Source of the DNA: a virus
Lineage: Duplodnaviria; Caudoviricetes
DNA: 64,000 bases
IMG/VR virus record: IMGVR_UViG_3300044831_000040
Span: 2,680 to 66,679 of that record
Direction: 5' to 3' (one strand)
The translations under genes were made by a program, and so were the position numbers. The notes beneath the pieces are model-generated. The model made no database searches. It was not told where the DNA came from and saw only the letters and a list, made by a program, of their open reading frames with translations. Below are positions 15,602 to 15,953 of this stretch, in pieces (the first letter of the stretch is position 1; each line of letters opens with the position of its first letter).

Positions 15602-15689
15602 CTAGGAAGGATGTGGGTTCGAGCCCCGCCCTCCGTGTCAACTCTCCGGCCGGGAGCCACGGAGGTAGCTCAATTGGTAGAGCACCTCG
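15602..15689 (+). ncRNA. circularly permuted tRNA-like module 1 (YrlA-like)
   Basis: T-arm GTGGG-TTCGAGC-CCCGC and CCTCCGT precede ACGGAGG-TA-GCTC-AATTGGTA-GAGC; acceptor strands perfectly complementary. Confidence 0.7.
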
Positions 15690-15719
15690 ATTTGCAACAG
15701 GCAGTACAGAACTATCCTT

Positions 15720-15791
15720 TCGGGGGTCCGGTAATTGGCAGCCGCGGAGGCTTTGACCCTCCGAGTCTTGGTCCGAATCCAAGTCCCCGAG
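15720..15791 (+). tRNA. tRNA-Gln(TTG)
   Basis: GGAGG-CTTTGAC-CCTCC; U1:A72. Confidence 0.9.
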
Positions 15792-15806
15792 CGCAGCAGC
15801 ACAATG

Positions 15807-15880
15807 GTCTGTGGTCGCAGGTTCAAATCCTGCCCGGCTCCTTCACCGGGGTCGGTAGCTCAGTCCGGTAGAGCGCAGGC
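15807..15880 (+). ncRNA. circularly permuted tRNA-like module 2 (His-like G-1:C73)
   Basis: GTCTG-TGGTC-GCAGG-TTCAAAT-CCTGC-CCGGCTC-C-TTCACC-G-GGGTCGG-TA-GCTC-AGTCCGGTA-GAGC-G-CAGGC. Confidence 0.75.
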
Positions 15881-15882
15881 AA

Positions 15883-15953
15883 ACCCGGGATCCCGGTGTC
15901 GAGGCCGGGCCTGGCCCTTCGGGGGCAGGTAGCTCAAGTGGAAGAGCACGGGC
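15883..15953 (+). ncRNA. circularly permuted tRNA-like module 3
   Basis: ACCCG-GGAT-CCCGG-TGTCGAGG-CCGGG-CCTGGCCC-TTCG-GGGGCAGG-TA-GCTC-AAGTGGAA-GAGC-A-CGGGC; acceptor stem closed by cUUCGg. Confidence 0.7.

What the first reader, a model, noticed from the sequence alone, without database searches (positions are those of the whole stretch)
15602..15953. Three circularly permuted, anticodon-less tRNA-like modules (YrlA/Y-RNA-like) in the tRNA array
Seen: in three places a tRNA 3' half (variable loop, T-arm, acceptor strand) precedes its own 5' half (acceptor strand, D-arm, anticodon strand). The acceptor helices are complementary but closed by a linker: a small hairpin (15602-15689), TTCACC (15807-15880, with a His-like G-1:C73 pair) or a cUUCGg tetraloop (15883-15953). 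The anticodon stems are formed by the module ends, and no anticodon loop can be rebuilt. D-loop GG is kept in all three and the T-loop TTCRA in two. Known: bacterial YrlA Y RNAs contain a permuted tRNA-like domain with a closed acceptor stem and are linked to Ro60/Rsr and RtcB (Salmonella rsr-yrlBA-rtcBA). Inference: these are phage tRNA-elbow mimics, possibly decoys for tRNA-targeting defences or partners of the phage RtcB. No Ro60 gene is visible in this window.
Basis: partly seen in the sequence, partly recalled or inferred. Interest (0 to 1): 0.88.

Follow-up and report, generated by a model that had tools for sequence, protein, structure and literature searches.

The report
Handle-less tRNA mimics in phage tRNA operon
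Three small RNA genes in this phage's tRNA cluster encode tRNA-shaped molecules with a sealed acceptor end and no anticodon; they are the tRNA-like core of bacterial YrlA Y RNAs without the part that binds Ro60, and related phages conserve them, so they are working RNAs rather than gene debris.

Summary
M1 (15602-15689), M2 (15807-15880) and M3 (15883-15953) each read: closing strand, variable loop, T arm, loop-closed 8-bp acceptor helix, D arm, closing strand. None has an anticodon loop.

- **Rfam YrlA:** the match covers only the tRNA-like core, at 41, 28 and 19 bits (gathering score 69).
- **My covariance model:** it finds the same module in related actinophage contigs. It sits beside Ro60/TROVE genes on a GAUGCGAA handle, beside DUF7873 genes as pairs, or bare inside large tRNA arrays 0-4 nt from neighbouring tRNAs.
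- **Covariation:** the 15 handle-less copies pair in 94% of cells, and 17 of 22 pairs show compensatory changes.
- **Homology:** 27 nt of M2 are identical to a Ro60-linked copy.

The modules are therefore not broken tRNA duplicates.

This 46%-complete fragment has RtcB. It has no Ro60, no DUF7873 and no Ro-binding handle.

My best reading is that normal tRNA processing releases them as sealed tRNA-body mimics. These would act as a ligand or decoy for a tRNA-recognising protein. That function is inferred, not shown.

I class them as a new variant of a known kind. This scan noted similar modules before on other DNA, including inside phage tRNA clusters.

The parts
15602..15689 (+). Module M1, a permuted tRNA-like RNA. 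Closing strand 15602-15606; variable region 15607-15612; T arm 15613-15629; acceptor 3' strand 15630-15637; 20-nt linker with hairpin 15638-15657; acceptor 5' strand 15658-15665; UA 15666-15667; D arm 15668-15683; closing strand 15685-15689. It starts directly after U73 of tRNA-Cys (15601).
   Evidence: Sequence; Rfam YrlA core match, 28.2 bits, E 1.1e-3; R1 44.1 bits although not used to build the model; no overlapping tRNA.
15807..15880 (+). Module M2, first of a tandem pair. Closing strand 15807-15811; variable loop 15812-15816; T arm 15817-15833; acceptor 3' strand 15834-15841; loop UUCACC 15842-15847; acceptor 5' strand 15848-15855; UA 15856-15857; D arm 15858-15874; closing strand 15876-15880.
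   Evidence: Rfam YrlA core match, 41.2 bits, E 1.9e-7; minimum-free-energy fold equals the predicted structure, z -2.95; 3' 27 nt identical and 5' 22 nt 91% identical to the Ro60-adjacent modules L088/L087.
15881..15882 (+). AA spacer between M2 and M3. The same 2-nt spacing separates tandem pairs in G017, G001 and L197.
15883..15953 (+). Module M3, second of the pair. Closing strand 15883-15887; variable region 15888-15891; deviant T arm 15892-15909; acceptor 3' strand 15910-15917; UUCG loop 15918-15921; acceptor 5' strand 15922-15929; UA 15930-15931; D arm 15932-15947; closing strand 15949-15953. It ends 3 nt before tRNA-Pro(CGG), which starts at 15957.
   Evidence: Rfam YrlA core match, 19.3 bits; minimum-free-energy fold equals the predicted structure, z -1.81. 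The 4-nt RGAU variable region followed by a C-initial T stem is shared with G001 L099:1501-1570 and G002 L089:1598-1670. A T loop that begins UG instead of UU is shared with G002 L089:1598-1670 only; the G001 copy has a standard UUCGAGU loop.
15529..15601 (+). tRNA-Cys(GCA). Its 3' processing site coincides with the 5' end of M1.
15720..15792 (+). tRNA-Gln(UUG), lying between M1 and M2.
15957..16031 (+). tRNA-Pro(CGG). Its RNase P site lies 3 nt after M3. In G017 a tandem module pair sits 2 nt upstream of the same tRNA.
15134..15162 (+). Nearest upstream promoter-like site, TTGACA-17-CATCAT. A weaker one lies at 15444-15471. Either could drive the sub-operon that holds the modules.
   Evidence: These are consensus matches only.
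1..310 (-). N-terminal part of the phage RtcB RNA ligase gene. The rest lies just upstream of the window, at G000:C1:1889-2989.
   Evidence: PF01139, 271.5 and 82.6 bits in one 447-aa frame.

Best explanation
Shown:
- M1, M2 and M3 are genes for structured RNAs of one family. The family is a circularly permuted tRNA body: T arm, loop-sealed 7-8-bp acceptor helix, D arm, and a 5-bp helix formed by the two ends in place of the anticodon arm.
- In this phage the domain stands alone. It has no Ro60-binding handle and is embedded in the tRNA operon.

Inferred:
- The modules are co-transcribed with the tRNAs.
- They abut tRNA ends: 0 nt after tRNA-Cys, 3 nt before tRNA-Pro, and 2 nt between M2 and M3. 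The ordinary RNase Z and RNase P cuts that mature the neighbouring tRNAs would therefore release M1 as a roughly 90-120-nt RNA and M2-M3 as a roughly 150-160-nt dimer.
- Each module would fold into the tRNA L-shape.
- The acceptor ends are sealed by stable loops (UUCG in M3), and there is no anticodon. The released RNAs could therefore neither be aminoacylated nor decode.
- They would act as inert tRNA-shaped ligands for a protein that reads the tRNA elbow and the D/T stems. The most likely role is as a competitive decoy or inhibitor of a host tRNA-directed nuclease or modifier. This would complement the phage's own set of 36 tRNAs and its RtcB ligase.

My confidence that this is a selected structural RNA of the YrlA-core family is about 0.9. 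My confidence in the decoy or ligand function is about 0.35-0.4.
For: Structure and homology:
- Anatomy read from the sequence.
- Rfam YrlA matches limited to the core of the model.
- Model R1 finds 29 distinct non-tRNA copies in relatives.

Covariation:
- All copies: 94.3% of cells paired, 20 of 22 pairs with changes on both sides, score 0.648 against 0.170 shuffled and at most 0.163 slid.
- The 15 handle-less copies from 8 records alone: 94.2% paired, 17 of 22 pairs, score 0.532 against 0.152 shuffled.

tRNA-like and YrlA-like features:
- The tertiary Levitt pair 15:48 is G:C in 14 and A:U in 11 of 29 copies.
- The D stem is GCUC/GAGC in 22 of 29 modules, against 77 of 231 tRNAs of the same phages. 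A sequence-conserved D stem is the YrlA hallmark noted in 10.1101/312249.
- U8, A14, A21, C56 and A58 are invariant.

Context:
- Seven of the eight records with 30-40 tRNAs carry bare modules, 0-4 nt from flanking tRNAs.
- Tandem pairs with 2-nt spacing occur in the window, G017, G001 and L197.
- Related copies sit next to TROVE or DUF7873 genes.
- RtcB is present here and in the two complete array-bearing relatives only.

Published precedent for a decoy role: Hughes et al. 2020 (PMC7790460) found that YrlA is not cut by the anticodon nuclease they studied. They proposed that its tRNA-like domain may act as a competitive inhibitor.
Against:
- The covariation alignments were fitted to the model, which inflates the pairing counts somewhat.
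- Without an anticodon loop the modules cannot decoy enzymes that need the anticodon.
- The acceptor helices are 7-8 bp long, like that of M. smegmatis YrlA, which RNase P opens in vivo (PMC4201824). The sealed state may therefore not be the final one, at least for M1 and M2.
- The closing helix of M1 has a mismatch and the T loop of M3 is non-canonical.
- The genome is only 46% complete, so a partner gene cannot be excluded.
Confidence: 0.5

Rival explanations
1. The modules are cofactor RNAs of a protein encoded elsewhere, DUF7873 or Ro60. They would be extra copies of the RNA partner of a ribonucleoprotein and would work bound to that protein rather than as free decoys.
For: - In relatives the same module lies directly beside TROVE genes (G007, G009, G010, G014, G015) or DUF7873 genes (G002, G004, G005, G013, G023).
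- The two complete array-bearing genomes, G002 and G013, have DUF7873, RtcB and bare array modules together.
- The window's genome is 46% complete. In Ro60-type relatives the Ro60 gene lies about 30 kb upstream of the capsid gene, which would fall beyond this contig's end.
Against: - The fragment holds no DUF7873 or Ro60 homologue, even with profiles built from relatives.
- The GAUGCGAA handle carried by the Ro60-linked copies is missing.
- G001, G012 and G017 have bare modules but no DUF7873 or TROVE within about 26 kb or more on either side of their arrays.
- The L197 pair has neither gene within 5-7 kb.
Confidence: 0.25
2. The modules are opened into two-piece, CCA-ended tRNA bodies. RNase P, and RNase Z or exonucleases, would excise the acceptor loop as in M. 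smegmatis YrlA. The product would be a nicked tRNA without an anticodon loop, which could be charged, or which could mimic a cleaved tRNA for RtcB or for sensors of damaged tRNA.
For: - The acceptor helices are 7-8 bp long. This is the determinant that Chen et al. [quoted passage not shown]
- The phage is related to cluster C mycobacteriophages.
- M1 has a large 20-nt linker and M2 a 6-nt linker.
- RtcB is encoded in the genome.
Against: - Many family members close the helix with tight tetraloops of the UUCG or CCCG type. That suggests the sealed form is the one selected.
- The pair between positions 73 and -1 is not conserved.
- No data on RNA ends are available.
Confidence: 0.12
3. The modules are debris of tandemly duplicated or rearranged tRNA genes. 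The array also holds tRNA halves left by homing-endonuclease insertions.
For: - Tandem tRNAs can imitate the module. Myrna's Lys-Lys junction scores 43.5 bits, and a tRNA-Asp followed by an orphan 5' half scores 41.7 bits.
- Three of the 36 rows in A4 were junctions of this kind.
Against: - None of M1-M3 overlaps a tRNA or has matching flanking halves.
- No anticodon-loop nucleotides remain.
- The acceptor ends are closed by short stable loops.
- There is strong compensatory covariation across phages.
- Array position and 2-nt pair spacing are conserved.
- M2 matches Ro60-linked modules better than it matches any tRNA.
Confidence: 0.03
4. The modules are true permuted tRNA genes. They would be circularised, for example by RtcB, and re-opened to give functional tRNAs, as in the red alga Cyanidioschyzon merolae.
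For: The 3' half precedes the 5' half, the acceptor ends are linked, and an RtcB ligase is present. The resemblance is discussed in 10.1101/312249.
Against: - Joining the ends would give no 7-nt anticodon loop. M1 starts flush with tRNA-Cys, and M2 and M3 are 2 nt apart.
- I saw no bulge-helix-bulge-like motif at the module ends on reading the sequence; I ran no formal search for one.
- The array already encodes 36 tRNAs.
Confidence: 0.02

Closest known systems
YrlA (Y RNA-like A; Rfam RF02553; Chen et al. 2014 PMC4201824; Wang et al. 2018 bioRxiv 10.1101/312249), including the YrlA RNAs of cluster C mycobacteriophages
   Same: - Same permuted order: variable region, T arm, loop-closed acceptor-like stem, D arm, with the RNA ends forming the anticodon-stem equivalent.
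- Same conserved tertiary nucleotides.
- Same sequence-conserved D stem (GCUC/GAGC) and G:C pairs at the base of the acceptor helix.
- The phage lineage is related: the capsid protein is 58-60% identical to that of Myrna and of Bxz1-type phages.
   Different: - No Ro60-binding stem or GNCGAA-type motif.
- No Ro60 gene within the 66.7-kb fragment.
- Scores are below Rfam's gathering threshold.
- The modules are embedded in a tRNA operon flush with tRNA ends.
- One copy pair is fused head to tail with a 2-nt spacer.
Double tRNA-mimic RNA next to DUF7873 (PF25283). I found no paper that names DUF7873. It was noted earlier in this scan and is seen here in G002, G004, G005, G013 and G023.
   Same: Same module family, detected by R1. 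The modules occur as two per unit. The unit co-occurs with large tRNA arrays and RtcB in the complete relatives G002 and G013.
   Different: Those pairs are about 75-80 nt apart and have 5' and 3' extensions that weakly match the whole YrlA model (30-35 bits over positions 1-114). They abut the DUF7873 gene. The window has no DUF7873 and its pair is spaced by 2 nt.
Circularly permuted tRNA genes of Cyanidioschyzon merolae (Soma et al. 2007, as cited in 10.1101/312249)
   Same: The 3' half lies upstream of the 5' half. The acceptor ends are joined by an intervening sequence, and the anticodon stem is formed by the transcript ends.
   Different: Those genes keep a full anticodon loop and a splicing motif, and they mature into decoding tRNAs. 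Here no anticodon loop can form.
Dimeric or tandem tRNA junctions, the known false positive of YrlA searches (Chen et al. 2014, Methods)
   Same: A T arm followed by a D arm. Such junctions can score up to about 43 bits with R1 when two isoacceptors are adjacent.
   Different: M1-M3 are not parts of complete tRNAs. Their acceptor and closing strands are complementary within the module and covary across phages.

Membership tests
YrlA / bacterial Y RNA (RF02553) | Permuted tRNA-like domain: T arm, closed acceptor-like stem-loop, D arm, with an anticodon-stem equivalent formed by the flanks | tested here: met
YrlA / bacterial Y RNA (RF02553) | tRNA tertiary nucleotides and sequence-conserved D and T stems | tested here: met
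   U8, A14, A21, C56 and A58 are invariant. The Levitt pair covaries in 25 of 29 copies. The D stem is GCUC/GAGC. The T loop of M3 deviates (GUCGAG).
YrlA / bacterial Y RNA (RF02553) | Ro60-binding module: a 5' GNCGAAN0-1G motif and a long stem formed by the RNA's 5' and 3' ends | tested here: not met
   only model positions 23-85 or 27-81 match; no GAUGCGAA-like handle near 15.6-15.95 kb. The modules abut tRNAs, so there is no room for a long stem.
YrlA / bacterial Y RNA (RF02553) | Encoded within about 4 kb of a Ro60/TROVE gene | tested here: not met
   no TROVE anywhere in the 66.7-kb record. The record is 46% complete, so absence from the whole genome is not shown.
YrlA / bacterial Y RNA (RF02553) | Reaches the Rfam gathering score (69 bits) | tested here: not met
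   41.2, 28.2 and 19.3 bits. The Ro60-adjacent copies in relatives also reach only 33-41 bits.
YrlA / bacterial Y RNA (RF02553) | Bound by Ro60 and modified by TruB and DusA | not testable with these tools
   Needs immunoprecipitation and modification mapping.
Permuted tRNA genes (C. merolae type) | Joining the transcript ends rebuilds a 7-nt anticodon loop, with a processing motif | tested here: not met
   the flanks are a tRNA end (M1), a 2-nt spacer (M2/M3) and a 3-nt spacer (M3/tRNA-Pro). No U33-NNN-R37 can be assembled.
DUF7873-associated double tRNA-mimic RNA | Two modules in one transcription unit | tested here: inconclusive
   M2-M3 form a pair, but it is spaced by 2 nt and lacks the extensions seen in L092, L100, L096 and L105.
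DUF7873-associated double tRNA-mimic RNA | Adjacent DUF7873 (PF25283) gene | tested here: not met
   none in the 66.7-kb record.
Tandem-tRNA junction (artefact class) | The T arm and D arm belong to two complete neighbouring tRNAs | tested here: not met

The most novel reading that the evidence does not exclude
Sealed, anticodon-less tRNA bodies are a regular, Ro60-independent component of large phage tRNA operons. The tRNA-processing enzymes release them, and they act as decoys or inhibitors against host enzymes that attack or sense tRNAs. They would form a third arm of phage protection of the tRNA pool, alongside replacement tRNAs and the RtcB repair ligase.
Probability: 0.25. Interest if true: 0.8.

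Novelty: new variant of a known kind. Interest (0 to 1): 0.62.

Why it matters
The function of the tRNA-like domain of Y RNAs is still unknown. Published work expects an effector that reads the elbow and the D/T stems, and has proposed nuclease inhibition. Here the domain occurs naturally without its Ro60 handle. It sits inside tRNA operons and is conserved with compensatory changes, often as a dimer. This implies that the domain has a job of its own that does not need tethering to Ro60.

It also gives a simple system for finding that job, because the phage lineage is related to cultured mycobacteriophages. In addition, the result shows that phage tRNA arrays hold functional non-tRNA genes. 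tRNA finders skip these genes, and YrlA searches discard them on purpose.

Tried and rejected
- **Close DNA relatives among cultured phages.** A blastn search gave only tRNA-Pro matches.
- **Relatives found through the capsid protein.** Of the 80 loci kept, only L079 and L040 held a full tRNA array within 10 kb downstream of the capsid gene (five others held one or two tRNAs), so I searched whole records instead.
- **First reading of L040 as a tRNA plus an orphan 5' half.** This looked like an intermediate of tandem duplication. It was wrong: the locus holds two adjacent modules.
- **Weak R1 hit at window 25533-25621 (-).** It lies in a coding region and I dropped it.
- **DUF7873 profile search.** My first hand-made profile mixed reading frames and gave a spurious weak hit. 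After I rebuilt it there was no hit.
- **DUF7873 structure.** The AlphaFold model had pLDDT 69 and pTM 0.47. The PDB sequence search and Foldseek gave nothing significant.
- **IMG/VR pattern scan for tandem pairs.** It mostly hit a different class of normal-order tRNA-like RNAs. Only L197 and L167 were free tandem pairs.
- **Score thresholds.** R1 score alone cannot separate modules from isoacceptor tandems, so every hit has to be checked against tRNA calls.
- **Literature.** No paper names DUF7873. I found none that describes bare tRNA-like modules in phage tRNA arrays. Burroughs & Aravind 2016 and Sim et al. 2020 are not held in the library.

Full report
**1. What is there**

The window is part of a 66.7-kb IMG/VR virus record that is 46% complete. 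It holds a 36-gene tRNA island at 12973-20598. Between tRNA-Cys and tRNA-Pro(CGG) lie three stretches that no tRNA finder calls.

Each of the three reads, 5' to 3':
- a 5-nt strand
- a 4-6-nt variable region
- a T arm
- an 8-bp helix closed by a loop
- UA
- a D arm
- one nucleotide
- a 5-nt strand complementary to the first

The parts list gives exact coordinates. M1 starts at the base after U73 of tRNA-Cys. M2 and M3 are separated by AA. M3 ends 3 nt before tRNA-Pro. No anticodon loop can be assembled from the flanks.

**2. Is it more than chance?**

- Rfam's YrlA model matches all three, but only over its tRNA-like core (positions 23-85 of 114). Scores are 41.2, 28.2 and 19.3 bits against a gathering score of 69.
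- I built a covariance model, R1, from M2, M3 and one homologue from a relative.
- M1 was not in the seed and scores 44.1 bits. Tandem-tRNA junctions in the window score at most 26.7 bits.
- Score alone is not safe, however. In phage Myrna a tRNA-Lys/tRNA-Lys junction reaches 43.5 bits. Three of 36 hits in relatives were junctions of this kind. I therefore checked every hit against ARAGORN calls.

**3. Relatives**

The capsid protein (window 11325-12323) is 79-91% identical to proteins on many IMG/VR contigs of about 150-166 kb. It is 58-60% identical to those of cluster C mycobacteriophages (Myrna, Bxz1-type ScottMcG) and of Gordonia and Rhodococcus phages. Chen et al. 2014 (PMC4201824) reported Ro60 and YrlA in phages of that group.

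I searched 23 whole records with R1, TROVE, DUF7873, RtcB and tRNA models. Three states emerged.

- **(a) Ro60 type (G007, G009, G010, G014, G015).**
  - These records have 1-5 tRNAs and no RtcB.
  - The modules lie upstream of the TROVE gene.
  - In G009 and G015 each module sits in a longer RNA that starts with a repeated GAUGCGAA motif.
- **(b) DUF7873 type (G002, G004, G005, G013, G023).**
  - A pair of modules about 75-80 nt apart lies next to a DUF7873 gene (PF25283; E = 8.9e-45 for the copy I scanned).
- **(c) Bare modules inside large tRNA arrays.**
  - These occur in 7 of the 8 records with 30-40 tRNAs: the window, G001, G002, G005, G012, G013 and G017.
  - They lie 0-4 nt from the flanking tRNAs.
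  - Tandem pairs with 2-nt spacing occur in the window, G017, G001 and the unrelated contig L197. G002 has a pair with a 9-nt spacer.
  - The pair sits 2-3 nt upstream of tRNA-Pro(CGG) in both the window and G017.

Four complete relatives (G003, G006, G008, G011) have none of these features. G003 is the closest relative. It lacks the whole roughly 10.8-kb insert that carries the island.

**4. Selection**

| Set | Cells paired | Pairs with changes on both sides | Covariation score | Shuffled | Slid |
|---|---|---|---|---|---|
| All copies | 94.3% | 20 of 22 | 0.648 | 0.170 | at most 0.163 |
| 15 handle-less copies, 8 records | 94.2% | 17 of 22 | 0.532 | 0.152 | at most 0.143 |

- In the handle-less set, all 5 closing-helix pairs and all 8 acceptor pairs covary.
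- The alignments are fitted to the model, which inflates pairing somewhat. The helices nevertheless differ completely in sequence between copies, for example GUCUG/CAGGC against CGGGG/CCCUG.
- Tertiary positions are kept. U8, A14, A21, C56 and A58 are invariant. The Levitt pair is G:C or A:U in 25 of 29 copies.
- The D stem is GCUC/GAGC in 22 of 29 modules but in only 77 of 231 tRNAs of the same phages. This matches the sequence conservation that Wang et al. (10.1101/312249) single out in YrlA.
- The last 27 nt of M2 are identical to the Ro60-adjacent module of G009 and G015, and 22 nt of its 5' part are 91% identical. No tRNA matches both halves.

These results rule out decay products of duplicated tRNAs. 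They also show common descent with the Ro60-linked YrlA-type modules.

**5. What is missing here**

- The 66.7-kb record has no TROVE and no DUF7873.
- It has no GAUGCGAA-like handle near the modules.
- RtcB is present. Among the eight complete relatives, RtcB occurs only in G002 and G013. These are the two complete genomes that also have large arrays, bare modules and DUF7873.
- A partner gene could lie in the missing half of the genome.
- Against that, G001, G012 and G017 carry bare modules with no DUF7873 or TROVE within about 26 kb or more on either side of their arrays. The L197 pair lies just after an ssb-like gene with neither partner nearby.

**6. Mechanism**

Shown: a selected, L-shape-competent, permuted tRNA body without an anticodon loop or a Ro handle, embedded flush between tRNAs.

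Inferred:
- It is co-transcribed with the tRNAs. Promoter-like sites lie at 15134 and 15444.
- The RNase Z and RNase P cuts that mature the neighbouring tRNAs release it.
- It acts as a tRNA-shaped ligand.

I favour a decoy or inhibitor of a tRNA-directed host enzyme, for four reasons.
- The acceptor end is sealed, often by tight tetraloops across the family.
- The module works without a tether.
- It travels with a full replacement tRNA set and with RtcB.
- Hughes et al. 2020 (PMC7790460) showed that YrlA is not cut by the anticodon nuclease they studied, and they proposed competitive inhibition.

Rivals:
- The modules could be a cofactor of DUF7873 or Ro60 supplied in trans.
- RNase P could open them and CCA could then be added. 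This happens to M. smegmatis YrlA, which also has a 7-bp acceptor helix (PMC4201824).
- The debris and true permuted-tRNA readings are disfavoured.

**7. Novelty**

The module itself is known as the YrlA core. I found no paper that describes its free-standing, handle-less, often dimeric form inside phage tRNA operons. Chen et al. discarded hits that overlapped tandem tRNAs or lay more than 4 kb from Ro60.

Earlier notes of this scan reported permuted tRNA mimics in other phages, the DUF7873 pairing, and a presence in phage tRNA clusters. I used them as leads. I confirmed the DUF7873 adjacency in this phage group. The ACAGCAA-type handle described there is not what I see here.

**8. Limits**

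- The genome is incomplete.
- The DUF7873 fold is uninformative.
- The co-occurrence counts come from 24 records of one phage group.

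Noticed in passing
window 15126-15335: A promoter-like site (TTGACA-17-CATCAT, 15134-15162) is followed by about 170 nt without a convincing ORF. The stretch ends in a hairpin plus T-run read by eye (GGGGAGCCCAGAGGGGCTCC TTTTT, about 15307-15331; the terminator scan did not list it), just upstream of tRNA-Leu(GAG). 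It may be a small RNA gene.
   Followed up: no
window 15474-15514: A near-perfect GC-rich hairpin of about 15 bp (CCCTCCCGCGGG...CCCGCGGGAGGG) lies between tRNA-Leu and tRNA-Cys. Its only database signal is a chance-level miRNA-family match.
   Followed up: no
window 15794-15806 and 16441-16453: The 13-mer CAGCAGCACAATG occurs twice. Each copy lies in the short spacer just upstream of a structured RNA (M2 and tRNA-Gly(UCC)). It may be a processing or spacer motif.
   Followed up: no
window 16032-16135: The spacer after tRNA-Pro(CGG) holds three GACAGC words and a T-arm-like CAGGGACAG...CAGTTCAATCCCTGTCC stretch. R1 gives it only 19.7 bits.
   Followed up: no
window 16537-17124: An ORF with a LAGLIDADG-like start (LAGLLEGEGSF) lies inside the tRNA array. 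Pfam gave only a weak HTH_7 match.
   Followed up: partly
window 12324-23183, compared with L003 10985-11475: The closest complete relative (G003, capsid protein 91% identical) lacks the whole roughly 10.8-kb block that carries the tRNA island. It has no tRNAs, modules, RtcB, Ro60 or DUF7873. The island therefore behaves as an accessory cassette.
   Followed up: partly
L138, L149, L158, L170 and many other IMG/VR loci: A recurrent tRNA-like RNA in normal order: acceptor, D arm, a short arm CGCA-CCAGGAGGUA-UGCG in place of the anticodon arm, T arm, acceptor and CCA. ARAGORN calls one of them tRNA-???. This is a different class from the finding.
   Followed up: no
G002:C1:132758-134827 (-): The RtcB of this complete relative lies in a 760-aa frame. 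The Pfam match is split between positions 1-50 and 48-426, with about 300 extra residues between them. This may be an intein or another insertion.
   Followed up: no
NC_011273.1 (Myrna) 92712-92781 and 95187-95255: There is an unannotated R1 hit (38.1 bits; perfect 8-bp closed acceptor, weak closing helix) in the gap between tRNA-Met and tRNA-Ala. Separately, tRNA-Asp is followed by an orphan 5' half. The first is a possible cultured-phage example of a bare module.
   Followed up: partly
L197 5117-5281: In an unrelated contig a tandem module pair with a 2-nt spacer starts 14 nt after the stop codon of a gene that ends ...DDEIPF, an SSB-type tail. A further structured stretch and a terminator-like hairpin follow it.
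   Followed up: partly
L079 19397-19435: After the single module in G001, at the position where the window has M3, there is only a long GC hairpin (CCCCGGG...CCCGGGG).
   Followed up: no
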